Shown here in pieces: positions 7,721-21,857 of a stretch of 64,000 bases of DNA (positions are counted from its first letter, which is position 1; every line of letters begins with the position of its first letter). This stretch comes from a bacterium. GTDB taxonomy: Bacteria > Electryoneota > JAOADG01. A program made the translations under genes and the position numbers. The stretch spans positions 2,400,001-2,464,000 of the forward strand of contig OY820579.1 in the NCBI GenBank assembly GCA_963681965.1. The letters are read 5' to 3'. Under the pieces are notes generated by a model, which had not been told where the DNA came from, did not search any database, and was given only the letters and a program-made list of their open reading frames with translations.

Positions 7721-10700
7721 ATGGATTTGACGCACTCAAGCGATCCTTTGATACTTCTTTCCAACTTGTTACTTGACGAACAATCGCCAACAGTTGCTAT
7801 TCCCATCGGTGAACGACGTGAAGTTGTTGTTTTCTTCCTGGATATCGTCGGTTTTACTTCACTAGCTGAAAAGCTGAACAACCCCGAAAAACAGTATACG
7901 ATTATCTCTCAGGTATTTGCTGCATTCTCAAAAATTATCGATGACCATGGTGGAAAAGTTGAGAAGTATATCGGCGATGCGATTCTTGCGGTATGGGGGA
8001 CGGACCAGATAACCGAATTCGATGCGGAAAAAGCAGTTCGCAGCGGTTTGGAAATCTTACAAAAATTGATCTCGGTAAATCAAACATTGTCGCCGTTAGG
8101 AATCGAGATTCAAGCGCGGATCGGGATCAATGCCGGAATGGCGATATTTGTTCCAGATCCATCCCAAACTCCTGATCCACGTAACGCTCGAAGTTGGTCG
8201 GTCACCGGCGACACTGTCAACACAGCGCAACGATTAGAAAGCAACGCGAAACCGGGATCCATCTTGATTAGCGCTTCAGTGCGCGAGCAAGCCGGCGAAG
8301 CATTTATCTATGAAGATAAGGGCGATCTGACAGTCAAAGGAAAGCAACATCCCATTCACATCTACCAGATCGCCGGGAAAGGGGCTGGACGCAAAAAACC
8401 GTGGGAACGCGTAGAACTGGTCAAACATTCACGCATGGTTGGGCGGGACAAAGAATTATCCAGATTGAATAACCATCTTACTAGTGAACCGGAGTTGAAT
8501 GACGACGGTTTTGCGAAACCGCACATCATCGGTATTCGCGCCGAAGCCGGAATGGGGAAATCCCGGTTGTGTAGTGAATTCACCGCGAGTTTGACGGTTA
8601 CCCTTTTGAAAGGGCAGACGATTGCGTATGCTCAACCGTCAAATTGGGTGTGGATGACGTTGCTACGCGATTTCTTCCAAGTGAATGAAATCGATCCCGA
8701 TGGATACCGCAAACTCGAAGAAAAGATTTCGTCGATTGAAAACGAGAAAAGACGGAATCGCTTGCAATCCAGTCTTCCGTTTCTCGCTCATCAACTAGAT
8801 TTGAAATCTCCGGATTCCGATGGAATACGGTCGATGGATGCCAAGATAATCAACCAAGAAGTAAAGCTGGGTATCAAATGGTTATTGGAAAGCCTCGCTG
8901 AAAACAATCGGATCGTCGTATTATTGGAAGATTATCACTGGATCGATTCTGCTTCCAATTCACTGTTGAAGTATTTAATACGAACACTGGAATCGAATTA
9001 TCCCATTCTTTTCTTACTTCCCTACCGTCCGAGTGTAACGTTACCGGCAATCGATCCTGATGAAGCAATCCTTGACGATATTATTCTAACCGAAATTGGA
9101 AATGAAGATTGTCGCGATTTATTGCATAGTATGCTAGGTTCGAGACTACCCGAAGAGACCGAACAATTTCTTCTGTCGCGTGCCGACGGGAATCCGTTCT
9201 ATATCGAAGAGGTAGTGATTTCGTTAGTATCGCGAGGTATCTTGCAGCAAGACGGAAAACAGTGGCTCGCCATGCAACCGCTAAGCGAAGCAGATGTTCC
9301 CCAGACCCTTCAAGCCATCATCCTCTCCCGTATCGATAATCTTGAACTCAAACAGAAGGAACTATTGAAGTATGCCTCGGTTATAGGACGACTGTTTCTG
9401 GTCGAGGTGCTTGAACAAATGGTTGCAAGATTGTCGCCTGAAATCGACTTAGAATCGGAATTGCGAGCATTATCCCATGTAAATTTGATTTTCGAATCGA
9501 TCGATTCCCGCGAACGTGCTTACTTATTCAAGCACGCAATTACCCGCGATGTCGCATACGGTACATTTTTAGATGTCCAATTGCGAAATCTGCATCGGAT
9601 TGTCGCGGAAATTATGGAACAGATGTTTTCCGATACTGAAACGTATGCCGGTATGATTGCCGAACATTGGGAGAAATCGCAAGCTGCCCCTGAAAAGATC
9701 GATCAATGGAATATGAAGGCATTAAAGCACTATGCCTTCAACTACCGATTCGAAGATGGAATCGCGCTTGGCGAGAAACTGTTAAAGCGATTGGACGATC
9801 TACCCGATACAGTGGATCGATGTAAGAAAAAATATCCCATAGCGATGCAGCTCTTCGGTTTGTATGCGAATTTTCCCGAGAAAAAATTAGCGCTGCTCGA
9901 AGATTCCGAGCACGAGGCGCGTAAATACGGTCTGAATGATCAACTGGCAATAATTTTGACGAGATTTGCTCATTTATATGATAATCAAAAACTATTAGAC
10001 AAAGCAACGCAATATTATCTCGAAGCCGAACCACTAGTTCGAGCTCTTAAAAATAAAGAGGAATTGTTAAGTGTTTTAATTAATCTAGCCTATTGCGCGT
10101 TCGTTAAGACAAATTTGGATTCGTCAAATAGATATTTAGAAGAAGCACTGCAATATTTTGACGAATCGAGCAACATCGCAGATTGCTTTAATATTGAACA
10201 AATTCAAATACTGAGTCGAGTCGAAGACGCTTTTTCGCCATTAATAGACGAGCTTTATGAAAAATATATCAGAATAGGAAAAGTCAAATTTAACCGATCG
10301 ATTGTTGCAATTAGCTTGGGACAATGGGGTAGATTTTGTGCGATTCGTCGCGATTTCAACGGCGCGCTCGATAAATTTAACAGTGCAATCGAAATATATC
10401 AACAGATTGGTTTATTGGATAGGATCGCAGATTGTTATTATGATATCGGTCATTGTTACCATTATGCCGGTTCTTACGATCTAGCAATTTCCAATTCACA
10501 AAAAGCGATGTCAATGCATCGAAAACTCCATGATTCTCAACAAATTGTCTGGTGTATCCTGACCATTTATAAATCGCTACTTCGTTTGAATCGGCTGCCC
10601 GAAGCAGAAGAGTTGTATCGGCTTGGAATCGATGAAGCTCGAAAAATTCATGATCTCAATGATGAAGTATATTTTAAAGTTGAAACAGGGGTTTTCTACT

Positions 10701-10906
10701 TACGGCAAAAGGAATTGGATCGAGCTGTGCAATACTACGATGAGATCGGTGCTATGTTCGATATTCTTCCCGATTACGAGCCAATGCATTATTTTGTGAA
10801 TCGATACCGTAAACGCTTGATTGAATCGGGAGTCGATCCGGTACGGTTACCGATTCCGGAAGTGTATTTAACTGCGCAACCTGCGACTGATATGTTCGAT
10901 TGGTAG
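7721..10906 (+). CDS. Class III adenylate/guanylate cyclase - STAND ATPase - TPR protein (paralog 2)
   Basis: Same motif set as 4492..7680; near-identical N-terminal half, diverged TPR region. Confidence 0.9.
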   Translation: MDLTHSSDPLILLSNLLLDEQSPTVAIPIGERREVVVFFLDIVGFTSLAEKLNNPEKQYTIISQVFAAFSKIIDDHGGKVEKYIGDAILAVWGTDQITEFDAEKAVRSGLEILQKLISVNQTLSPLGIEIQARIGINAGMAIFVPDPSQTPDPRNARSWSVTGDTVNTAQRLESNAKPGSILISASVREQAGEAFIYEDKGDLTVKGKQHPIHIYQIAGKGAGRKKPWERVELVKHSRMVGRDKELSRLNNHLTSEPELNDDGFAKPHIIGIRAEAGMGKSRLCSEFTASLTVTLLKGQTIAYAQPSNWVWMTLLRDFFQVNEIDPDGYRKLEEKISSIENEKRRNRLQSSLPFLAHQLDLKSPDSDGIRSMDAKIINQEVKLGIKWLLESLAENNRIVVLLEDYHWIDSASNSLLKYLIRTLESNYPILFLLPYRPSVTLPAIDPDEAILDDIILTEIGNEDCRDLLHSMLGSRLPEETEQFLLSRADGNPFYIEEVVISLVSRGILQQDGKQWLAMQPLSEADVPQTLQAIILSRIDNLELKQKELLKYASVIGRLFLVEVLEQMVARLSPEIDLESELRALSHVNLIFESIDSRERAYLFKHAITRDVAYGTFLDVQLRNLHRIVAEIMEQMFSDTETYAGMIAEHWEKSQAAPEKIDQWNMKALKHYAFNYRFEDGIALGEKLLKRLDDLPDTVDRCKKKYPIAMQLFGLYANFPEKKLALLEDSEHEARKYGLNDQLAIILTRFAHLYDNQKLLDKATQYYLEAEPLVRALKNKEELLSVLINLAYCAFVKTNLDSSNRYLEEALQYFDESSNIADCFNIEQIQILSRVEDAFSPLIDELYEKYIRIGKVKFNRSIVAISLGQWGRFCAIRRDFNGALDKFNSAIEIYQQIGLLDRIADCYYDIGHCYHYAGSYDLAISNSQKAMSMHRKLHDSQQIVWCILTIYKSLLRLNRLPEAEELYRLGIDEARKIHDLNDEVYFKVETGVFYLRQKELDRAVQYYDEIGAMFDILPDYEPMHYFVNRYRKRLIESGVDPVRLPIPEVYLTAQPATDMFDW

Positions 10907-10997: not shown

Positions 10998-13208
10998 TTA
11001 CTTGATCAAAACGATCTTGCGAACCGCTTCGTTGTTACCGGCGGTAAGCTTCAGGAAATAGGTACCGGTTGCAAGATGGCTGCAATCGATCGTTTCTCGG
11101 TAACTACCGGCACCAAGGCGCTCATTGCGCACAACCATGACTTCCCGACCGGTCAGATCGAATAACTTGATTGCGACGCGATTTGCCTTAGCCAGCGTAA
11201 AGTCAACTGAGGTTGTTGGATTGAACGGGTTCGGATAAGCATTACCGACTTGGAACGTCGCCGGAAGTGTTACATCCGGTGCTGCACTGCCGGAAATCGT
11301 TAAGGTGACTGGAACAACGACCGGTACAATATTTCCGGAGAAAGTAAATGCTCCGGTGTGTACGGAACCAGCTGTCATGTTCTGTGAATTCCACAATACT
11401 GGAACGGTAGTCGATTGACTCGGTTGCAGGCTGAATGTTGTTTGAATTGGATTTGCCCAGTAAGGTGAGAATTGAATCCGGATCGCGTTGTTCGATGGAA
11501 TGAACGTGGACGGATTGAGGGTTGAATTATAAATATTGACGAATCGCGATCGATCCTCGCTTTGAATACCGATTGCGGTATTGTAATCGGCGATGCTAAT
11601 CGTGCCGTATTGCAATAAAATCGTGCCGTCTTCGTAGAGTGCACACTGCGCGTTGATCCGGGTCGTGACGCCACTGTAACGGCGGGCATTGATCCATGAG
11701 AAGATCACGCGTTCGTTTTGGGAATCGTATACGATCTTTGTGCTGCCGGTGTCCTGAGCGACCCATAGATCGTTCCAGAATACGGCGATACACGATTCCA
11801 CGTAATTGCTCGGGAACGGCTGACGTCGCCAGGAATTCGCATCGGTAATTTGATTGAAGGAGAGGATACCGTTTGCATTCATATAGACAGTCGAATAGTT
11901 ACTGCCATAGAACGGGAATACGAACGGAAGATCGTACGAGATCGTCGCATCGTTGCCCATCGCCCCATCATCCCCCCCGGTAGTATCGATCCAGCGATAA
12001 GCCGGACCACCGGAATTTGCCGTCTGCAAATAGGTAAAGTTGTTGAGTCCGGTATTCGACGTAAGAGTGCCACTATACGGAATCGAACCGGTATTGGTAA
12101 CCGTCAACGTTTGCGTCAGCGTGTCGTTAACTGCTAGCGTCGTGGTGAAGGGGGTAGGCGTTACCGTGATAGATGTAGCACTCGCAATCTTGAAATTACC
12201 GGCAAGTGTGTCGGCATTGCGCGGTCGTCGAATTGACTTGACGATGATGCGTGCACTGTCGGTGGAAGCACCATTCACATTCCACTCACAGTATCCATTG
12301 TTGGGAACGTTGGCAGCGATAGTATCCCACGTACCCGACGGATAATGCCGATTGAGCAGAATATTCATCGTATCGGTGTAGAAAGAATTCCAGATAATCG
12401 GGAAAGTGTGTTCGATAAATGCCATCTGCTGCGGTGCCGGTGACGTGATTCCGTGGCAACGCGTTGACTGCAATACTTCGCGGGAAGAAGTGTTCTGCAC
12501 GAAGGCAATGATACTGCAACTATCGATATTGTAGGGTTCGGTACCAGTCGTACGCGGCGCGAAACGGGTCGTGAACGTAAGGGTATCGGACGTTGAACCG
12601 GAATGGGTAAAAGGAAAACCGGCAACCGATGGTTTTGCCGAAATAAACGGGTAATCCCAGGTGTTGACTCCGTTCGGTGCGGCAGTTGCCCACACTTCGT
12701 GGATTTCAGTCAAATATATTTTTAGGAAAGTGCTACTGGTGATTGCTTGATTGGCAACTGCTTTCACCGTCACGACCAGTGTATCGTTCGTGGTCGGAAC
12801 GACACTGACCTTAAGCCAGACTGGTGACGGGAGTGCGTTGCGGGTATTGACAGCAGTCGTGATCAAGTTCGGTGTAGAAGAAGCACCGAAACCGACGATT
12901 ACGTTACCGTCGATCGCGAAAGTAGGATAACCGGTTACACCGTAAGTATTTCGAAGTGTATCGGCTTGTCCGGTGTTGGCTAAGTACCACGGATCATTGG
13001 GTCCCGGGTAATTTTCATGATACTGGATGTATTGGACTGTACCTTGCCCCGCAAGGTATGGGACGAGCCACGTATGGGCTGTCGCACAGAACGATCAAGA
13101 GTAGTTCGTGTAGTCTTCCAGTAGTACGGTGCGGGGATACGCAAAACCGAGCGCAGCCATCGCGACTACCAGAAGCAACACTGCACCAATAGTAGCACTT
13201 TGCTTCAT
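10998..13208 (-). CDS. Predicted exported selenoprotein (736 aa, Sec38): signal peptide, Omp28/thioredoxin-like UxxC domain, Ig-like and nidogen-like domains, T9SS-type CTD
   Basis: ATG at 13208 with GGAG RBS. In-frame TGA at 13097-13095 gives RTVLLEDYTNYS-U-SFC. The frame stays open for 77 codons into ORF 10998..12866 and includes YH...PGPNDPWY and YGVTGYPTFAIDG (thioredoxin cis-Pro loop). Confidence 0.85.
13040..13083 (-). promoter_or_regulatory. Candidate SECIS hairpin(s) downstream of the in-frame UGA
   Basis: Hairpin A (13083-13062) GACAGCCCA-UACG-UGGCUCGUC starts after an 11-nt spacer from the UGA. Hairpin B (13058-13040) is UACCUUGC-GGG-GCAAGGUA, a perfect 8-bp stem. Confidence 0.5.
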
Positions 13209-13372
13209 AATGATCTCCGGGTTAATCGAGTGAATTGCTATTTTAAGTGAAAATTCAACATGAAAAGTAACCAATTCCGGTTGGATTCTCAATCGAAAAT
13301 TGAATTTTAGAAAAAAAGTGAGAGTGGGGAGGGTGTATCGGTTTAGTACAGGAATGTCATAATTGAACATAT

Positions 13373-13415
13373 AAAAAAAGACTCGCAAGATGCTGTAGTA
13401 CAGCTCAAGCGAGTC
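13373..13415 (-). terminator. Intrinsic terminator after the SDR gene
   Basis: Minus strand GACTCGC..GCTGTA/TACAGC..GCGAGTC followed by TTTTTTT. Confidence 0.65.
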
Positions 13416-14707: not shown

Positions 14708-14803
14708 TGGCGGGAGCGTCTGGGAATCGAACCCAGCCGAGAGGTTTCCCCCTCACAACCGGCTTTGAAGGCCGTGGCGTCCACCAGAACCGCAGCCACT
14801 CCC
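14708..14803 (-). tRNA. selC: tRNA-Sec (anticodon UCA)
   Basis: 96-nt GGGAGTGGCTGCGGTTCTGGTGGACGCCACGGCCTTCAAAGCCGGTTGTGAGGGGGAAACCTCTCGGCTGGGTTCGATTCCCAGACGCTCCCGCCA: CTTCAAA anticodon loop, 4-nt TGGT D-loop, long variable arm, TTCGATT T-loop, G discriminator, encoded CCA. Confidence 0.93.
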
Positions 14804-14851: not shown

Positions 14852-16570
14852 TTACTTCAATAAGACGATCTTCTGCGATTTTGATGCGCCATTCGCTTGT
14901 AACCGGACAAAATAAGTTCCCGATGGGAGCGACTTGCCATCGATGGTGACGCGATACGATCCGGCTTGTTGTTGGAAATGGGTCGATTGGAATACTTCAC
15001 GACCATTCAAATCGTAGATCTGAATCGACTGCAGTGGTGAATGAAGTGTCGTGATCTGCAACGTAACGGATGAATTAAAGGGATTGGGATAAGCTTTTAC
15101 AGCGAAACTGTCGATTATTGAAGCCGATGGATCAGAATTGACGCTGTTGACATGCAGTAGCGGTTTCGAAAAATCGACGACTTGATACCACATCGTATCG
15201 GAACCAAACGAATTGGTGGCGACCACCTGAAATTGAGCCGATCGATAAATTTGATTCGATGTTGCCGGAATCGTGACGACATTATTTTGCATCGTGATTC
15301 CCGGCCAGGCATTCACCATCTGGTAGCCAGCGATACCGGATGCGCTGTCAAAGCGTATCGTATCGCGTTGAACAGTACCATTAATCCGGAACGACTTTCC
15401 TTCAAATGGAATAAAGCGAGGAAGATATTGAGTCGTACTCCCGACGCGGAACGATTTTGTATATGTAGCTGAACTCGTCACGATTCGCGCTTCCCAGATT
15501 CCGTAATCAGCCGAAGTGACATAGCCGCTGAAATTCCAATACCAATAGAACCAGGCATATTGATAGCGATTGGCGATCGATGTGTTCGATTGGCTGTAAA
15601 CACGACCGGATGGGGTTCGTAGCGAAATCGTATACGTATCGCCTGCCTGATTCTGGTCTTGGAACCAGCACATGATGTAGGGTTCGGATGCTCCGATCTG
15701 CAGGGGTTGCGAAAAGCCATTTTTCAAATACGACATGGAGACGTCATTGAGGCTGCCGCCAGCAGCCGCCTGCGTTGTCACTCCCATATCGAAGACGCGC
15801 ATGGGGAGAGTACCGACATAGGGTTCTTGAACCGACCAAAGTGACGGGAGCGGGTTATTAGTACCGAACCACGGATCGCGAGTGACCCAGTTACTATTTT
15901 CATACTGCCCGAGTTCGAAATGAAGGTGCGCATCGGTCGACATCCCGGAACTGCCTACCAGACCAAGTTGATCTCCCTGTTGTATGGTCTCTCCGACTTG
16001 GACGGTCGGAGAATTGGTGCGCATATGCCAATAATAAGCGTAGGAGTTGTCGCTGTGACGAATGATGACATAATTCGCCGGCGGATAGGGTGGATTGCCC
16101 CAATTGGTATTGCGGTCGAATTCCTGATATGCTACTCCGGCTACTACTCCGGGTGCTGCGGCATAAATTGGTATGCCGCGATCCATTTGCCGGAAATTCA
16201 ACAAACAGTAATCGGTACCACGATGACCATCGTAAGAATGGGGATTTCCCATAAAGTCGCGAATAGCCGATGAAGTATCGTCGTCGACATAGTTGACTAG
16301 TACTAGTTTTTCATTCATCCGTATACTAAGTGGCCAACCGAATAAGGGATAATTTACTTCCTGAATGATGGGTGACGAACTGCGCGATTTGGAAAGATAT
16401 TCTTCTAATGGCTTCGGTGGATAGAGAGCGGGTGGTACTGCATTGACCGTCATCGCGGGAGAGGTGATAACATGTTCGATACCAACACCGTCGGCATCTG
16501 AAGCAAATGCAAGTGAAGTAGTCAAAGTGAGAAGAAAAAAGGTTCCGATGAAGAGACTTACGGTTTTCAT
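14852..16570 (-). CDS. Secreted M23 family metallopeptidase with T9SS-type CTD
   Basis: Signal peptide; HRGTD (HxxxD), YWHM, GSSGMSTDAHLHFE (HxH); YPNPFNS...KIVLLK. Confidence 0.88.
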   Translation of the reverse strand: MKTVSLFIGTFFLLTLTTSLAFASDADGVGIEHVITSPAMTVNAVPPALYPPKPLEEYLSKSRSSSPIIQEVNYPLFGWPLSIRMNEKLVLVNYVDDDTSSAIRDFMGNPHSYDGHRGTDYCLLNFRQMDRGIPIYAAAPGVVAGVAYQEFDRNTNWGNPPYPPANYVIIRHSDNSYAYYWHMRTNSPTVQVGETIQQGDQLGLVGSSGMSTDAHLHFELGQYENSNWVTRDPWFGTNNPLPSLWSVQEPYVGTLPMRVFDMGVTTQAAAGGSLNDVSMSYLKNGFSQPLQIGASEPYIMCWFQDQNQAGDTYTISLRTPSGRVYSQSNTSIANRYQYAWFYWYWNFSGYVTSADYGIWEARIVTSSATYTKSFRVGSTTQYLPRFIPFEGKSFRINGTVQRDTIRFDSASGIAGYQMVNAWPGITMQNNVVTIPATSNQIYRSAQFQVVATNSFGSDTMWYQVVDFSKPLLHVNSVNSDPSASIIDSFAVKAYPNPFNSSVTLQITTLHSPLQSIQIYDLNGREVFQSTHFQQQAGSYRVTIDGKSLPSGTYFVRLQANGASKSQKIVLLK

Positions 16571-16889: not shown

Positions 16890-19800
16890 TCACTTCAAGA
16901 TGACCATTCTTTGTGTCTGCGACCATCCTTCGCAATTCAACCGGTAGAAATAGACACCCGATGCCAAACCAGACCCGTTGAAGCGGGTGGAATGATAACC
17001 GGCGGGAAGTTTTCCATCCACCAATCGAGCAATCTCACGTCCGTTCAGATCGAATACGACTAACTGCACACTGCTCGCTTCCGGTAAATCAAAGCGAATT
17101 TCAGTCAGTGGATTGAACGGATTCGGGTAATTCGGATGTAGTGCAATTTTCTCCGGTAAACCGAGCAAACGATGGGGATCGGTACCATTGAAGATGACGT
17201 TCGCATTCACTGAGACGACGCGGGTACTGCAATCATTGGTCGAGAAAATGATGTCACCGATGATCCGATCATTGATGTGATAAGTCGTATCGAGTGTTAT
17301 TGTCACATTGATATTATTAACCGAAGATCCGGGTGCAACGACTCCGGAATCGGGCGATACCGTTAACCAATTACGAAGCGGTGCATAGTTCGGATAGAAA
17401 TATGCCAAACCCCAACCGTTCATATTGGTCGGGAGCCCTTGACCGGCGGATGCACCGTAATAATTCTGGATGTAATAGCGATTTGCACCGGTACTGCCCT
17501 GAATACCGACGGTTGCCGACATTTGACTTACCGGAACACGATCGTATAAGAACACGATCGCTCGGTTGTTTGCATGGAATTGTGCTTCAAAGCGAACCGT
17601 GTCGGTTTCGTGACCAATGCGATTGCCGACCCACTCCAGAATAAAGACGTTATTGACTGCATCGTAAAACTTATAGACAGACGCTTCAAGATCGTCCCAG
17701 AGCGGCATCACGGCATTGATTGCGGTTTCGGTAGGAAGCGGCAAGTTGACGCGGCTGCCGAGTGGATCGTCGCTATTGATGAATTGCGCAACACCATTGG
17801 TGTTGACCCGAATCCGGTTATACTGAGTGCCATAATAATAGAAATTGAAGCCGTCCATTTGCGTCATGATTGCTTCGTCATCGCCTTGCAGTACTAGTGT
17901 ACCGGTGGATGCAATATTTCGGAATGTCAACCATTCGGGGAAATTGATTTCGGATAAGTCGTAACAGTAGTAGCCGAAACTATCGGGACCCCAGAATTGA
18001 TCGACCGATTGAATTACCGGTTGAGTGGTTTCTTCCTGCCCGGGAATCTTAGGCTGATGTTCGATTGCCAGCGTCTGAGCCGGAAGGGGTGAGGGGAGGA
18101 TTGCCGCACGAGCATCGATACTGGGATCGAATCTTTCGCGACGCCATGAAGAACCGGATCGAAGCAATGACGTTCGATTTCGGGTTGTCACTTTCCAATT
18201 GAGTGGTGCATCGCCACTATTGGTGATAGTGAGCGGAACGGTAGTCACGCCGTTGGTCGGTGTCTGCAAATCGAATGATGTTGGTGTGGTCGAGATCGAT
18301 GGATGTCGGACCGTATCGGAAATCGAGGTCGTAGTGCTACTCGTGATCGAGAACGCATGATAAATAGTATCGGGAACGAAGCAGCTCGCGACAATTTTCG
18401 CAACCCAATTCCCGGGTTGCAGAGCAATTGAATAGTATCCGTTTGCCAGCGATGTGGCAGTCCACTGATTTGCCACACTGATTTGGGCACCGGCTAATGG
18501 CAAGCCATTACCGCGAACGATTCGACCGGATAACGATCCGTTGCTTCGCTGTGTCGACCAGAAACCGATACTGGAACTTGACGTCGGTCGAAATACTCCC
18601 GTGCCATTCAGATTGAGTTGGAAACCTTGTGTTCCAGTTTGATCTTCGATGCCGATTCCATAGTCGGAGAAAGATGGTGAATACTGATACGCGAAATATA
18701 TTGCTCCTGATTGATCCAGCCGCACTTGGAAATTACCTGCCGATGCTTGAGATGGTGCATGGAGGATGGATGTATAAGAGACGATAAAGAGACCATTCAG
18801 CGTATTGATTTTGACCGATCCACTGCTGCAATCAAGATCGCCCCAGAGTGGCGCAATCACGGCATTGGGAAGATCTGACGAGGGGAATCCGGGGCACTGG
18901 CGTGGATACCATTGCGGTGAAGTGAATGAAAGGAAACCGTTCGACGAGATATAGACTGAATCGTAATTGACACCGAAGAACGGGAACGAGAATCCGAGCG
19001 GTACCCGAACGGAACCATCGACGCGAAGACCCAAGTCGGTCCAGTTGGTGGTATTGTACCAGGTATAATTTACCGTCGACCACGGTTGTTGAATCGAGAT
19101 AAAGAATGGATCGGATTTTTCCGACACATTTGCCGGAATGGCATCGTCGAATGCCTCGATCCGGTAAGTGTACCCGCGATTGTTGGATGGCGGATCGTAA
19201 ACGAACGAATCGATATTTGCTGCGACTGTACCAATTAATGTAGTATCGCGATAGATCTTGTACCCGGTAAGATCGACACATGGCGTACTATCGGCATTGG
19301 TCGTAACCGGACTCCAGCGCAGAAGCAGCGTCGTATCGACAATTGATGCGGTTAGATACGCCGGTTTTGCTGGTGGCATGTTGTAGGTGGCAAGCGCCGA
19401 ATCGGGACAGAGCGCGATGAATGCCGGAGCAGTGTAGACTGCGGCAACATTATACCAACTGTAGATTCCTTCGCCACGGCTACCACGCGAACTATCAATA
19501 TACTCGTAAATATTCGGTGCAAGATTTGCCAGTAACGTATCGTTGCGATAGATGCGGTATCCACTCAGTGATGCAATTTCATCCTCAGTCGAACCGGGCG
19601 CCTGCCAGTTCATAATGATCCGATCGTCGTGGAATCCATCGCCCATAAAACCGGCGGGTGGCTGATTTGAAATCGGTCGCAATAATATCGTCAGATTGGT
19701 GTCGAGATTAGATCTCAATTGAAACTCAATCGTTCGAGAATGATACCCAAAAGCACTGGCGATAACAGAAACGGGAAGTGCATTCACATTGAGGAATTGA

Positions 19801-21731
19801 AATTCGGAGTTGGGCAGTTGGACATCAACCGAACGAGGATAGGAACCGTCATACAAATCAATTCGACCGGCGATTGCATTGTTATTTGTCGAATCGCGTA
19901 AAACTCCTGCAATCGATCCATATAATCGCGATGTGCGTCGGATTCGAACATTCAAACTATCATGACCCGATGATTCGCCAATATTTGCGCCGGATTGCGT
20001 ACAAATGCCGAAATAAAGTGTAAGCGGTTCTTCGGCATGCAAATAATTAATATCGATCACACCATTCGGATACAAAACGTATTGCATCGTAATCGATAAA
20101 TTCGGATTTTGATATTGATGTGCGTTAAAATAACTGATTACAAACCGGTTGTTGAGAGTATCGAAGGCATACCGAATCGAATCGTTTGCCACGACCAGAT
20201 CCATCCACGATCCGGCTACGATCTGAGCAATGCTACTGTGCTCGATTGGTGTCGGTGCCCTTAATAGCCTGTCACTTGGAGCCAAGTGATTACCGATAAA
20301 ACCGTTGGTCGAACATTCGACTGAATCCCAAGTACTGCTGTATAATGGGAAACGGAATGGAAGTGCAATAGCAGGAGTAAGTTCATCGTCGCCGCAGATT
20401 AATCCAATGCTGCGATTTCGAATATCAATCCAATTGAATTGTCCTAAATCGTAGGAATAACCCGGATCGGGTCGAGGGATGCTCGAAACAACATTCGAGA
20501 GATCGGACATGCCGACTGTGGAGTGTGTCTTGACGAAATAGCGATACTCGATGCCATCGGTGACAGTCGTATCGGAAAACGTCGTGTCGGTCGCGGTAGA
20601 GCGAACACCGATGGGAAGTGTATCGGTTCCGGTTATCCGCCAAATACTATATCCGAATATTCCCGTTCCAGTTGGACGACTCCATATCAACGGAACTCGG
20701 TTATGCAATCCGGTCGTTGCCGTTAGATTGACCGGAGGATTCACCACCAAAGTCGCAGTGGTTAGTGTCAGTCCCGGCGACACGGTCGCGTTCGCAGTCA
20801 CTGAAAATGTACCGGATGACGTTGTACCGCGATAAGTTGGCGCAATCGCTCGCAACCGATAATTGGAAGCGACGAGAATGTTCGGGAAGACGGCGACGCC
20901 TAAACTGTCGGTGACACGGAACAGATTGGGGAAAGCAGTGACTTCGACCAATGCATTGCGGATCGGAACACTGCCAGCACCGCGGATAGTCGCCGAGATT
21001 GTTCCGGTGGATAGATAAAACCGGATCGCCATGGAATTGGTAGGAGTGATCGTCGACGAGTTGTAGCAGTATTGCAAATAGCGATTGTTCGCTCCGCTAT
21101 TGGGTCCCTGCAGACCGATCGTACAGTGGTTATTCAGTGCGCTCATGTCGCGATACATACACTCAATGACACCGGATTCATACAATCGGAGCTGGAATGT
21201 GTAAGTATAGAGTGGTAAATAGTAATGCGGTACTTGATACCATTCGACGATAAACCGGTGATTAGTGCTGTCGCGATAGTACCATATCGAACCCCCCTGA
21301 GTAGGGTCGAGATCGTCCCAAAATGGATAAATACCGGGTTGCACATGGTTGGTGAACGGGAGTGCGACATTGTTGAAATAACTCGACGTGAGCCCGAAAC
21401 CGACAAAACCGTTAGTACAAATATTGATGCTATCGGTGTAGGTTGTACCGTAAAAAGGGAAGAAGCCTGAAAGTGGCACGGCAACGTTCTGATCGTTGAG
21501 TGTAAGTCCAGTGTTGAAACCGGGTCCACCGGCATCGCCAGCGATTTCGAACCAATCGAATGTTGGTCCGGTCGGTTCGACGACATTGTCGATATAGCGA
21601 TAGCCATACCCATCTGGACCACCGGTGCGATTAAGCTCATCGGCAGCAGCGAACACAGTTGTCGGCAGTGTTGCGATCAGAATAAATGTGAGGCATAGCG
21701 AAGTTAGAACGAACGAGAATTTGTTACGCAT
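16890..21731 (-). CDS. Large secreted multidomain protein (repeated nidogen-like, Fn3 and carboxypeptidase-regulatory-like domains, T9SS-type CTD)
   Basis: Start MRNKFS at 21731 with GGGAG RBS; signal peptide; four F.FP(F/L)Y/FG...s.NG..F...W.DL units; NYPNPFNP...RMVILK. Confidence 0.85.
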   Translation of the reverse strand: MRNKFSFVLTSLCLTFILIATLPTTVFAAADELNRTGGPDGYGYRYIDNVVEPTGPTFDWFEIAGDAGGPGFNTGLTLNDQNVAVPLSGFFPFYGTTYTDSINICTNGFVGFGLTSSYFNNVALPFTNHVQPGIYPFWDDLDPTQGGSIWYYRDSTNHRFIVEWYQVPHYYLPLYTYTFQLRLYESGVIECMYRDMSALNNHCTIGLQGPNSGANNRYLQYCYNSSTITPTNSMAIRFYLSTGTISATIRGAGSVPIRNALVEVTAFPNLFRVTDSLGVAVFPNILVASNYRLRAIAPTYRGTTSSGTFSVTANATVSPGLTLTTATLVVNPPVNLTATTGLHNRVPLIWSRPTGTGIFGYSIWRITGTDTLPIGVRSTATDTTFSDTTVTDGIEYRYFVKTHSTVGMSDLSNVVSSIPRPDPGYSYDLGQFNWIDIRNRSIGLICGDDELTPAIALPFRFPLYSSTWDSVECSTNGFIGNHLAPSDRLLRAPTPIEHSSIAQIVAGSWMDLVVANDSIRYAFDTLNNRFVISYFNAHQYQNPNLSITMQYVLYPNGVIDINYLHAEEPLTLYFGICTQSGANIGESSGHDSLNVRIRRTSRLYGSIAGVLRDSTNNNAIAGRIDLYDGSYPRSVDVQLPNSEFQFLNVNALPVSVIASAFGYHSRTIEFQLRSNLDTNLTILLRPISNQPPAGFMGDGFHDDRIIMNWQAPGSTEDEIASLSGYRIYRNDTLLANLAPNIYEYIDSSRGSRGEGIYSWYNVAAVYTAPAFIALCPDSALATYNMPPAKPAYLTASIVDTTLLLRWSPVTTNADSTPCVDLTGYKIYRDTTLIGTVAANIDSFVYDPPSNNRGYTYRIEAFDDAIPANVSEKSDPFFISIQQPWSTVNYTWYNTTNWTDLGLRVDGSVRVPLGFSFPFFGVNYDSVYISSNGFLSFTSPQWYPRQCPGFPSSDLPNAVIAPLWGDLDCSSGSVKINTLNGLFIVSYTSILHAPSQASAGNFQVRLDQSGAIYFAYQYSPSFSDYGIGIEDQTGTQGFQLNLNGTGVFRPTSSSSIGFWSTQRSNGSLSGRIVRGNGLPLAGAQISVANQWTATSLANGYYSIALQPGNWVAKIVASCFVPDTIYHAFSITSSTTTSISDTVRHPSISTTPTSFDLQTPTNGVTTVPLTITNSGDAPLNWKVTTRNRTSLLRSGSSWRRERFDPSIDARAAILPSPLPAQTLAIEHQPKIPGQEETTQPVIQSVDQFWGPDSFGYYCYDLSEINFPEWLTFRNIASTGTLVLQGDDEAIMTQMDGFNFYYYGTQYNRIRVNTNGVAQFINSDDPLGSRVNLPLPTETAINAVMPLWDDLEASVYKFYDAVNNVFILEWVGNRIGHETDTVRFEAQFHANNRAIVFLYDRVPVSQMSATVGIQGSTGANRYYIQNYYGASAGQGLPTNMNGWGLAYFYPNYAPLRNWLTVSPDSGVVAPGSSVNNINVTITLDTTYHINDRIIGDIIFSTNDCSTRVVSVNANVIFNGTDPHRLLGLPEKIALHPNYPNPFNPLTEIRFDLPEASSVQLVVFDLNGREIARLVDGKLPAGYHSTRFNGSGLASGVYFYRLNCEGWSQTQRMVILK

Positions 21732-21857
21732 CGGAATCTCCCAACCCATAGGGGTTGATCGTGTCGAATGTCGAGGATCATCAATCAATCAATTAAAATA
21801 CAGTATTTTTTTGCCAAGGGATAATGATTTTAGGATGTGGAGAAGATTTTCGGAAAA

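What the first reader, a model, noticed from the sequence alone, without database searches (positions are those of the whole stretch)
10998..13208. Hidden exported selenoprotein: Omp28/thioredoxin-like UxxC domain fused to a T9SS-type secretion domain
Seen: two separately called ORFs share one frame, interrupted only by TGA at 13097-13095. Read-through gives signal peptide-YPRTVLLEDYTNYS-U-SFC...YH..PGPNDPWY...YGVTGYPTFAIDG...Ig/nidogen-like domains...YPNPFNP..KIVLIK. Neither piece makes sense alone: the first is a signal peptide plus 14 residues, the second lacks a signal peptide but has a secretion CTD. Known: the TGA aligns to the first Cys of the E(E/D)FT..WCxxC motif of Omp28/thioredoxin-fold proteins, the usual Cys/Sec swap site. 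Inference: a Sec-containing redox protein exported to the cell surface or medium, which is unusual for bacterial selenoproteins and would be missed by standard annotation. I cannot confirm novelty without a search.
Basis: partly seen in the sequence, partly recalled or inferred. Interest (0 to 1): 0.92.

Follow-up and report, generated by a model that had tools for sequence, protein, structure and literature searches.

The report
Surface-exported selenocysteine thioredoxin-like protein gene
This is one real gene whose single in-frame TGA encodes selenocysteine in the active site of a thioredoxin-like protein that carries a type IX secretion tail; it belongs to a large, routinely mis-annotated family related to a selenoprotein family that is already catalogued.

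Summary
Window 10998-13208 (-) is one frame of 736 codons with a single TGA at 13095-13097.

**Evidence that it is a selenoprotein gene:**
- The genome (1 contig, 99.9% complete) has selA, selB, a TGA-containing selD and tRNA-Sec.
- In 121 aligned family copies from 57 genomes, the column holds TGA 44 times, Cys 71, Ser 4, Asp 1 and Ala 1. No stop occurs elsewhere.
- TGA-type copies carry a hairpin 10-42 nt downstream that Cys-type copies lack. Its stem covaries in 7 of 7 pairs in one taxonomic family.
- Contigs of three runs from two studies show the TGA.

**What the protein is:**
- Signal peptide, then a thioredoxin fold with UxxC, then a beta-sandwich. The best structural match is HBP35 of Porphyromonas gingivalis.
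- A NIDO-like middle region and a T9SS C-terminal domain follow.
- PorU and SprA are present in the genome.

**Novelty is moderate.** The related selenoprotein family NF045500 / "GOS_C" has been catalogued since 2008. This clade scores far below its cut-off. Public annotation truncates the gene.

Secretion, surface location and redox activity are inferred, not shown.

The parts
10998..13208 (-). Complete coding sequence, 736 residues plus stop, read with TGA 13095-13097 as selenocysteine
13140..13208 (-). N-terminal signal peptide, residues 1-23 (K2, hydrophobic core, GFA before Y24). Judged by inspection and family conservation; no signal-peptide predictor was run
   Evidence: the conserved A-[YF]-x-R begins right after it; helix 2-20
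13095..13097 (-). In-frame TGA = Sec38
   Evidence: Column is U 44, C 71, S 4, D 1, A 1 in 121 copies. TGA present in contigs of 3 runs
13086..13097 (-). UxxC redox motif (U38-S-F-C41) at the N-terminus of helix 1 of the thioredoxin fold
   Evidence: (C38 and C41 invariant in 41 sequences)
13057..13088 (-). SECIS-like hairpin, nt 10-41 counted from the U of UGA. Interrupted stem, -11.3 kcal/mol
   Evidence: z -2.30, 5 of 200 shuffles as good. Family-level support
12834..13139 (-). Thioredoxin-fold domain, residues 24-125, with invariant R26, E31, U/C38, C41, H64, Y89 and P95 (the thioredoxin cis-Pro position, by recall)
12453..12833 (-). Beta-sandwich domain, residues 126-252, Omp28-like
   Evidence: 2r2c Omp28 domain; 5y1a HBP35 spans both domains
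11238..12452 (-). Middle region, residues 253-657, not matched by Pfam in this copy. Two paralogs in the same genome match NIDO (PF06119) over its cut-off at the equivalent place
11010..11237 (-). T9SS type A C-terminal sorting domain, residues 658-733
14708..14803 (-). tRNA-Sec (anticodon TCA), the decoding tRNA, 1.5 kb upstream on the same strand
   Evidence: (63.8 bits against gathering score 47)

Best explanation
Window 10998-13208 (-) is a single functional gene for a selenoprotein. At UGA codon 38, SelB with Sec-tRNA(Sec) is recruited by a hairpin that starts about 10 nt downstream, and selenocysteine is inserted instead of terminating. These decoding steps are inferred from the machinery, the Sec/Cys column and the hairpin.

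The product has five parts: a signal peptide; a thioredoxin-fold domain whose UxxC sits at the N-terminus of helix 1; an Omp28-like beta-sandwich; a NIDO-like middle region; and a type A T9SS C-terminal domain.

The inferred route is export by the Sec translocon, signal-peptide cleavage after residue 23, then recognition of the C-terminal domain by the type IX secretion system (SprA, PorV-like, PorU). The protein would then be released or anchored on the cell surface.

The inferred function is a surface thiol/selenol-disulfide oxidoreductase. Sec38 would be the attacking nucleophile and Cys41 the resolving residue. This is analogous to HBP35 of P. gingivalis, which is secreted by the Por (type IX) system and has thioredoxin and hemin-binding activities.

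The gene is one of three Sec-type copies and one Ser-type copy in this genome. The family occurs across the phylum and has switched between Sec and Cys at least 8 times.
For: **Machinery.**
- selA scores 481 bits, selB 364 bits and selD 337 bits with its own TGA; all are over their cut-offs.
- tRNA-Sec is present.
- selA was found in 58 of 61 relatives.

**TGA is not a general sense codon.** The 2221-aa SprA frame and the 1323-aa PorU frame have no internal stop.

**Sec/Cys column.** In 121 of the 123 fetched copies that aligned, the column holds U 44, C 71, S 4, D 1 and A 1. No TGA lies elsewhere. The codons are TGA 44, TGC 47 and TGT 24.

**Conservation on both sides of the TGA.** R26 and E31 upstream, and C41 and H64 downstream, are invariant in 41 sequences.

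**Hairpin.**
- MFE of nt 10-42 has a median of -10.75 kcal/mol in 44 U-type copies and -5.2 in 77 others (p 5.8e-13).
- Two flanking control windows show no difference (p 0.56 and 0.73).
- Family f3 (19 U-type copies, chosen by taxonomy) gives a 7-bp stem in which 7 of 7 pairs have compensatory changes. It is 88.7% paired, 0 of 500 shuffles reach this, and slid controls give 26-51%.
- Cys-type copies of the same family are 38% paired, and 0 of 27 have at least 6 of the 7 pairs, against 16 of 19 U-type copies.
- In the window's own family, all 8 U-type copies fold more stably (-6.5 to -12.6 kcal/mol) than the 4 non-U copies (-4.2 to -5.6).
- The window's own hairpin has z -2.30.

**Assembly.** Contigs of runs X1, X3 and X4 (2 studies) cover the TGA with 0 differences.

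**Fold.**
- The AF2 model has pLDDT 89.4.
- The top Foldseek hit is HBP35 5y1a (E 6.5e-11, TMq 0.68); the second is the Omp28 domain 2r2c.
- The profile hits thioredoxin 1fo5 (7.5e-7) and 5y1a (4e-6). The E-x-F-T...C-x-x-C...H signature aligns with HBP35.

**Secretion.**
- The C-terminal domain scores 52 bits.
- PorU scores 619 bits, a PorV-like gene next to it 209 bits, and SprA about 700 bits.

**HBP35 activities.** These come from the abstract of PMC2907840. Por-dependent secretion comes from the title of PMC3120885 in the search listing.
Against: - There is no expression or protein evidence: no listed run is on record as RNA.
- No Rfam family matches the region.
- Folding the larger 71-nt stretch of the window's own copy gives z -0.57 only.
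- The consensus for the window's own taxonomic family has just 4 pairs and no compensatory change. The strongest covariation therefore comes from other clades.
- With relatedness controlled there are only 8 independent Sec/non-Sec contrasts. The hairpin goes the expected way in about 5.5, the other way in about 0.3, and the median sign-test p is 0.06.
- X1 and X3 may be the window's own source, and contigs drop rare variants.
- Omp28 (Pfam) scores 26.7 bits, under its cut-off of 34.9.
- NF045500 scores 14.4 bits against a cut-off of 200.
- The PorV-like gene scores 209 bits, under its cut-off of 250.
- Identity to HBP35 is 15%.
- No signal-peptide predictor was run.
- The substrate, the reductant and the surface location are all inferred.
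Confidence: 0.85

Rival explanations
1. It is a nonsense pseudogene: the TGA is an inactivating mutation of a former Cys codon and no full-length protein is made.
For: TGA is one base away from TGC and TGT, the codons in 71 homologs. Table 11 splits the gene. There is no expression evidence.
Against: 44 copies in 24 genomes carry the stop in this one column. None of the 128 matches has TAA, TAG or a second stop. Sequence is conserved on both sides of the TGA. A hairpin accompanies TGA but not Cys. The Sec machinery is complete.
Confidence: 0.02
2. It is an assembly or sequencing error: the real codon is TGC or TGT.
For: The change would be a single base. Two of the three runs that cover it may be the window's own source.
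Against: Contigs of X1, X3 and X4 (two studies) agree, with 0 differences. The same TGA occurs in 43 other copies from independent assemblies.
Confidence: 0.01
3. The gene is Sec-decoded and exported, but it is not a disulfide oxidoreductase. The U/C-x-x-C plus invariant His64 site would instead bind a ligand (heme, a metal, or a sulfur or selenium species), with the protein acting as a surface receptor or scavenger.
For: HBP35, the closest structure, binds hemin and is needed for growth when hemin is scarce (abstract of PMC2907840). His64 is invariant beside the UxxC and aligns with a His of HBP35. The column tolerates Ser, Asp or Ala in 6 of 121 copies, and one copy is UxxS. No reductant for a surface thioredoxin is evident.
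Against: The geometry is that of redox-active thioredoxins: UxxC at the N-terminus of helix 1, and Pro95 at the cis-Pro position (the cis-Pro role is recalled). Recombinant HBP35 has thioredoxin activity that depends on its two Cys residues. Sec at the first position of CxxC is the usual redox swap in the catalogues.
Confidence: 0.12
4. There are two products: translation ends at the TGA, and a separate signal-less protein starts downstream, as public annotation has it.
For: NCBI models of the orthologs start at an internal Met after the TGA.
Against: Those internal starts fall inside the conserved thioredoxin fold, within the YH-M-NWP motif. A T9SS cargo without a signal peptide could not reach the periplasm (established knowledge of T9SS, recalled). 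Cys-type homologs are continuous across this point (P0005).
Confidence: 0.02

Closest known systems
HBP35 (35-kDa hemin-binding protein) of Porphyromonas gingivalis, PDB 5y1a
   Same: [quoted passage not shown] It is the best fold match (E 6.5e-11, TMq 0.68, 273 columns) and a profile match at 4e-6 with the E-F-T...C-x-x-C...H signature aligned. Thioredoxin and hemin-binding activities have been shown (PMC2907840 abstract).
   Different: HBP35 has Cys, not Sec. Sequence identity is only 15%. HBP35 is about 344 residues in the PDB chain, against 736 here, which has an extra middle region of about 400 residues. No activity has been tested for this protein.
NCBIfam NF045500 'Omp28-related selenoprotein', listed as 'Hypothetical protein GOS_C' (Zhang and Gladyshev 2008, PMC2398784; 2026 review PMC13188914)
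   Same: It is a UxxC selenoprotein with a thioredoxin-like fold and many Cys homologs (74 Sec and 312 Cys sequences in GOS; passages read). The model aligns to residues 27-250 of this protein and to relatives at up to E 2e-17.
   Different: The score here is 14.4 bits and the best among 61 relatives is 63.4 bits, against a cut-off of 200. This clade is therefore not a member by NCBI's own test and is not named as a selenoprotein by it. The GOS paper's text has no hit for 'signal peptide' or 'outer membrane' and gives no function for GOS_C. I could not see a true NF045500 member, so I cannot say whether it carries a T9SS domain.
Omp28 / 'Omp28-related outer membrane protein' with a T9SS tail (Pfam PF11551 + PF18962), Cys forms
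   Same: The N-terminal module and C-terminal domain have the same architecture. Most of the 120 listed homologs of a Cys-type relative carry PF11551 and/or PF18962, and they include named proteins of Lewinella cohaerens and Bacteroidia MAGs. The beta-sandwich matches the Omp28 domain 2r2c.
   Different: Those are Cys forms. This protein scores 26.7 bits on PF11551, under the cut-off of 34.9, and 27.3 bits on NF033782 against a cut-off of 150.
Other extracytoplasmic or thioredoxin-fold bacterial selenoproteins (SaoB, SaoC, DsbA-like, DsbG-like, thiol:disulfide interchange protein)
   Same: Sec sits in a CxxC-type or Cys-rich site of a protein with a signal peptide.
   Different: None of them is described with a T9SS domain in the passages I read. 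They belong to different folds or families.

Membership tests
Bacterial selenoprotein gene (SelB/SECIS-decoded UGA) | An in-frame TGA aligned with Cys in homologs | tested here: met
   Column is U 44, C 71, S 4, D 1, A 1 in 121 copies; no TGA elsewhere
Bacterial selenoprotein gene (SelB/SECIS-decoded UGA) | selA, selB, selD and tRNA-Sec in the same genome | tested here: met
   All are over their cut-offs in a genome that is 99.9% complete
Bacterial selenoprotein gene (SelB/SECIS-decoded UGA) | A stem-loop immediately downstream of the UGA | tested here: met
   Window copy: -11.3 kcal/mol, z -2.30. U-type against others: p 5.8e-13, with flank controls showing no difference. 7 of 7 covarying pairs in family f3. 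No Rfam match. Independent-pairs p is about 0.06
Bacterial selenoprotein gene (SelB/SECIS-decoded UGA) | Selenium actually incorporated in the product | not testable with these tools
   Needs 75Se labelling or mass spectrometry
NF045500 Omp28-related selenoprotein (GOS_C) | Score of at least 200 bits on the NCBIfam model | tested here: not met
   14.4 bits. The best of 61 relatives is 63.4 bits
NF045500 Omp28-related selenoprotein (GOS_C) | UxxC motif in a thioredoxin-like fold | tested here: met
   motif as listed in PMC13188914
Pfam Omp28 (PF11551) | Gathering score of 34.9 bits | tested here: not met
   26.7 bits over residues 83-252. The fold of the beta-sandwich does match 2r2c
Thioredoxin fold | beta-alpha-beta, alpha, beta-beta-alpha topology with CxxC at the N-terminus of helix 1 and a conserved Pro before strand 3 | tested here: met
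   Order of AF2 secondary-structure elements. P95 is invariant. Profile hits to thioredoxins 1fo5 and 1nho. The cis conformation itself cannot be read from the outputs
T9SS type A cargo | C-terminal sorting domain | tested here: met
   PF18962 at 52.1 bits against 27; TIGR04183 at 46.2 bits against 23
T9SS type A cargo | N-terminal signal peptide | tested here: inconclusive
   Typical n-, h- and c-regions by inspection, conserved across the family. No predictor was available
T9SS type A cargo | T9SS machinery in the genome | tested here: met
   PorU at 619.5 bits and SprA at about 700 bits are over their cut-offs. The PorV-like gene next to PorU scores 209 bits, under its cut-off of 250
HBP35-like surface thioredoxin | Thioredoxin (insulin-reduction) and hemin-binding activity | not testable with these tools
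   Shown only for HBP35 itself (PMC2907840 abstract)

The most novel reading that the evidence does not exclude
This phylum displays selenoenzymes on the cell surface through the type IX secretion system. The family is multi-copy, was found in 57 of the 61 genomes searched, and has Sec forms in 24 of them. It has switched between Sec and Cys at least 8 times. It would perform selenium-based redox or ligand-capture chemistry outside the cell, in the manner of HBP35. If so, this would give the first cellular context (T9SS cargo, HBP35 fold) to the long-uncharacterised and abundant GOS_C / Omp28-related selenoprotein superfamily.
Probability: 0.35. Interest if true: 0.7.

Novelty: new member of a known kind. 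Interest (0 to 1): 0.5.

Why it matters
- **Annotation.** Standard pipelines cut these genes at the TGA and report signal-less "T9SS type A sorting domain-containing proteins". The curated selenoprotein model does not reach them. Dozens of selenoprotein genes in this phylum are therefore mis-called.
- **Biology.** The finding ties three things together that were not connected in any paper I could find:
  - a Sec/Cys thioredoxin-fold family;
  - the only characterised relative, HBP35, a surface thioredoxin and hemin binder;
  - the type IX secretion system.
- **A testable hypothesis.** It gives a hypothesis for the function and location of the GOS_C-type selenoproteins, which were found in 2008 without a function.
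- **An open question.** It raises how a surface-exposed selenol is kept reduced.
- **The principle is not new.** Sec at the first position of a CxxC in a thioredoxin fold is the commonest kind of selenoprotein (review text).

Tried and rejected
**Searches and tests that led nowhere**
- **Rfam.** A scan of 12900-13250 gave no SECIS or other meaningful match.
- **First fold.** Folding 71 nt after the TGA gave z -0.57. Only the tighter 33-37-nt window is distinctive.
- **RNA evidence.** No RNA holder was listed, so nothing can be said on expression.
- **Linkage to tRNA-Sec.** No tRNA lies within the roughly 1.5-kb flanks of 8 loci holding family copies. In G001 and G002 the tRNA-Sec is on other contigs than the orthologs. 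Conserved linkage is therefore not shown, and these fragmented assemblies cannot exclude it.
- **selA as a discriminator.** selA is in 58 of 61 genomes, so it cannot separate Sec-type from Cys-type genomes.
- **True NF045500 members.**
  - The model is over its cut-off in 0 of 61 relatives.
  - None of 8 named Cys-form homologs reaches it.
  - No protein named as a selenoprotein appeared among the 120 listed homologs.
  - I therefore could not test whether GOS_C proper has a T9SS domain.
- **Host lineage.** It was not named: the tools gave only codes or "[bacterium]".
- **Copies not aligned.** L139 and L154 (2 of the 123 fetched) gave no tblastn hit and were left out of the tally.
- **Supplements.** Paper supplements are closed. 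Dataset S2 of PMC2398784 (the GOS_C sequences) could bear on the relation to this clade.
- **Literature.** These searches found nothing relevant:
  - Omp28 + selenoprotein: 0 papers.
  - selenoprotein + "type IX secretion": 1 paper, unrelated.
  - selenocysteine + T9SS: 2 papers, unrelated by title and abstract start.
  - selenocysteine + "C-terminal sorting domain": 0 papers.
Full report
**1. The observation**

Under table 11 the region holds a 622-aa ORF (10998-12866, -). It also holds a short upstream ORF that ends at TGA 13095-13097. Reading TGA as U gives one frame of 736 residues from ATG 13208 to the stop at 10998-11000, with a single recoded codon, U38. A GGAG lies 6 nt before the ATG.

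The N-terminus (MKQSATIGAVLLLVVAMAALGFA) looks like a signal peptide, by inspection only. The C-terminus (658-733) matches the T9SS sorting domain: PF18962 at 52.1 bits against a cut-off of 27, and TIGR04183 at 46.2 bits against 23.

**2. Can this organism decode Sec?**

The window lies in a one-contig genome of 4.24 Mb that is 99.9% complete. That genome has:
- selA at 481 bits;
- selB at 364 bits;
- selD at 337 bits, with an in-frame TGA of its own;
- tRNA-Sec at 63.8 bits, confirmed by ARAGORN with anticodon TCA.

All are over their curated cut-offs.

The tRNA-Sec lies at window 14708-14803 (-), 1.5 kb upstream of the gene on the same strand. TGA is not a general sense codon here, because the 2221-aa SprA and 1323-aa PorU frames contain no stop. 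selA was found in 58 of 61 sampled relatives, so Sec use is a trait of the whole phylum sample.

**3. The Sec/Cys column**

A six-frame search of 61 genomes of the phylum with the N-terminal 263 residues found 128 matches in 57 genomes. By my count from that table, 44 matches have exactly one stop, always TGA, and 84 have none. No match has TAA, TAG or two stops.

I fetched 123 copies (plus the window's own genome). Of these, 121 aligned and two gave no tblastn hit. In the alignment column of U38 there are:
- 44 U;
- 71 C (TGC 47, TGT 24);
- 4 S;
- 1 D;
- 1 A.

No TGA lies anywhere else.

The motif context is VLxExFTNxx-[U/C]-xxC. In a 41-sequence alignment R26, E31, U/C38, C41, H64, Y89, P95 and G197 are invariant. 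Selection therefore acts on both sides of the TGA.

The Sec forms occur in 24 genomes of 5 of the 8 sampled taxonomic families. The window's genome has three Sec copies and one Ser copy.

A maximum-likelihood tree of the 121 copies was built with the trait column masked. It needs 15 Sec/non-Sec changes, of which at least 8 are forced by well-supported branches. Shuffled labels need about 36. The window's copy is sister to a 75-78% identical paralog at C1:1590202.

**4. The SECIS-like hairpin**

*All copies.* Nucleotides 10-42 after the codon fold with a median of -10.75 kcal/mol in the 44 TGA copies, against -5.2 in the 77 others (Mann-Whitney p 5.8e-13). Same-sized windows upstream and 100 nt downstream do not differ (p 0.56 and 0.73). 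Z-scores against shuffles are -1.88 and 0.19.

*By taxonomic family.* I grouped by family so as not to select on the feature being counted, and let RNAalifold predict the structure.

| Family | U-type copies | Predicted pairs | Pairs with compensatory change |
|---|---|---|---|
| f3 | 19 | 7-bp stem with triloop, nt 14-20 / 24-30 | 7 of 7 |
| f5 | 12 | 7 | 4 |
| f1 (window's own) | 8 | 4 | 0 |

*Controls for f3.* The stem is 88.7% paired, 0 of 500 shuffles reach this, and slid partners give 26-51%. Cys-type copies of the same family pair in only 38% of cells. None of those 27 has at least 6 of the 7 pairs, against 16 of the 19 U-type copies.

*Family f1.* The 8 U-type copies fold at -6.5 to -12.6 kcal/mol. 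The 4 non-U copies of f1 fold at -4.2 to -5.6.

*The window's own hairpin.* It spans 13057-13088 and folds at -11.3 kcal/mol (z -2.30, 5 of 200 shuffles as good).

*Weak points:*
- The 71-nt fold is unremarkable (z -0.57).
- No Rfam family matches.
- With relatedness controlled there are only 8 independent contrasts: about 5.5 go the expected way, about 0.3 the other way, and the median p is 0.06.

The loop lies about 21-28 nt from the UGA. That fits the range I recall for bacterial SECIS elements; this is recall, not a call.

**5. Not an assembly error**

Contigs of runs X1 and X3 span the whole stretch. A 2478-nt contig of X4 spans 11940-13400. All three have 0 differences, and they come from two studies. 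X1 and X3 may be the source of the window, and contigs drop rare variants. The 43 other TGA copies in other assemblies are the stronger argument.

**6. What the protein is**

An AlphaFold2 model of residues 1-263, built with the family alignment, has pLDDT 89.4. It shows:
- a strand-helix-strand, helix, strand-strand-helix order, with UxxC at the start of helix 1 and invariant P95 before strand 3, which is a thioredoxin fold;
- a beta-sandwich over residues 130-251.

Foldseek against the PDB gives HBP35 of P. gingivalis (5y1a) as the only hit with E <= 0.001 (6.5e-11, TMq 0.68, both domains). The Omp28 domain 2r2c is second, followed by DsbA and thioredoxins. The family profile hits thioredoxin 1fo5 (7.5e-7) and 5y1a (4e-6). 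The alignment pairs E31, C38, C41 and H64 with HBP35 residues.

[quoted passage not shown] It shows Cys-dependent thioredoxin activity, binds hemin, and supports growth when hemin is scarce (abstract of PMC2907840). Its secretion depends on the Por system (title of PMC3120885 in the search listing).

The middle region (253-657) has no Pfam match in this copy. Two paralogs in the same genome match NIDO over its cut-off at the equivalent place (28.9 and 30.0 bits against 25). Orthologs in G002 and G003 carry a different middle region. The N-terminal module and the C-terminal domain are therefore the constant parts.

The genome encodes PorU (619.5 bits), a PorV-like protein next to it (209 bits, under the cut-off of 250) and SprA (about 700 bits). 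It also has dozens of ORFs bearing the C-terminal domain. Two of those lie just upstream in the window.

**7. Mechanism**

*Shown:*
- one frame with one TGA;
- the Sec machinery;
- the Sec/Cys column;
- a hairpin specific to the TGA copies;
- the thioredoxin/HBP35-like fold (as a prediction);
- the T9SS sorting domain and T9SS genes.

*Inferred:*
- SelB-dependent insertion of Sec at codon 38;
- Sec-translocon export and cleavage after residue 23;
- T9SS transport to the surface or medium;
- Sec38 as the attacking nucleophile and Cys41 as the resolving residue of a surface oxidoreductase.

The main functional rival is a ligand-binding role (heme, metal or chalcogen) for the U/C-x-x-C plus His64 site. 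This is suggested by HBP35's hemin binding and by the 6 copies that have lost the first Cys/Sec.

**8. Comparison with what is known**

*NF045500.* NCBIfam holds this model, "Omp28-related selenoprotein". This protein scores 14.4 bits and the best relative 63.4 bits, against a cut-off of 200.

*GOS_C.* The 2026 catalogue of 119 prokaryotic selenoprotein families lists NF045500 as "Hypothetical protein GOS_C", with a UxxC motif (passages of PMC13188914). The 2008 paper reports 74 Sec and 312 Cys sequences, a Trx-like fold and no function. Its text has no hit for "signal peptide" or "outer membrane" (passages of PMC2398784).

*Cys forms.* Proteins with the Omp28 module plus T9SS tail are common and already named, for example "Omp28-related outer membrane protein" of Lewinella cohaerens.

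*Other exported selenoproteins.* Extracytoplasmic selenoproteins are already in print.

This gene is thus a new, unmodelled member of a known kind. It is not a member of NF045500 by that family's own test, but it is homologous and works like it.

*What I did not find in print:*
- any link of selenoproteins to T9SS;
- any mention of Omp28 together with selenoprotein.

These are negatives from the held library only.

**9. Annotation consequence**

The public models of the orthologs are P0007 (622 aa) and P0012 (616 aa), both named "T9SS type A sorting domain-containing protein". Both start at the Met of YH-M-NWP, after the Sec, and so lack the signal peptide and the UxxC.

**10. Verdict**

The gene is real and robustly supported as a selenoprotein gene. 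Export and chemistry are inferred. Novelty is moderate. Interest is 0.5.

Noticed in passing
window 14708-14803 (-): tRNA-Sec lies 1.5 kb upstream of the selenoprotein gene on the same strand, separated from it by an SDR gene. In G001 and G002 the tRNA-Sec is on other contigs than the orthologs, so conserved linkage is not shown.
   Followed up: partly
G000:C1:4177383-4178309 (-), locus L010: The genome's selD has one in-frame TGA, so it is itself a likely selenoprotein.
   Followed up: no
G000:C1:201723-202460 (+); L103, L116, L155, L105, L134, L144: Six family copies have lost the Sec/Cys: Ser in 4, including a paralog in the window's own genome (SxxC), Asp in 1 and Ala in 1. One Sec copy (L103) is UxxS, with Ser in place of the second Cys.
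   Followed up: partly
window 14852-16570 (-) and 16890-21788 (-): Two more T9SS cargo genes lie just upstream. One is an M23 peptidase with a C-terminal sorting domain. The other is a 1632-aa protein with NIDO, CarboxypepD_reg and sorting domains.
   Followed up: partly
window 7721-10906 (+): A convergent 1061-aa gene has an adenylate/guanylate cyclase domain, AAA_16 and TPR repeats.
   Followed up: no
relatives G006, G007, G011, G012, G016, G017, G021, G025, G029, G033, G037: Several genomes, mainly of families f4 and f5, have two full-length selA matches over the cut-off. In G049 the selA match carries a TAG and a TAA.
   Followed up: no
G000:C1:3383978-3384154 (-): A short match to the C-terminal sorting region has one TGA inside an open frame of only 55 aa. 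It could be another TGA-containing T9SS cargo, or merely a gene end.
   Followed up: no
L025 (G003) and L027 (G002) against the window: Orthologs share the N-terminal Sec module and the sorting domain, but their middle region differs from the NIDO-like one here. The module is combined with variable passenger domains.
   Followed up: partly
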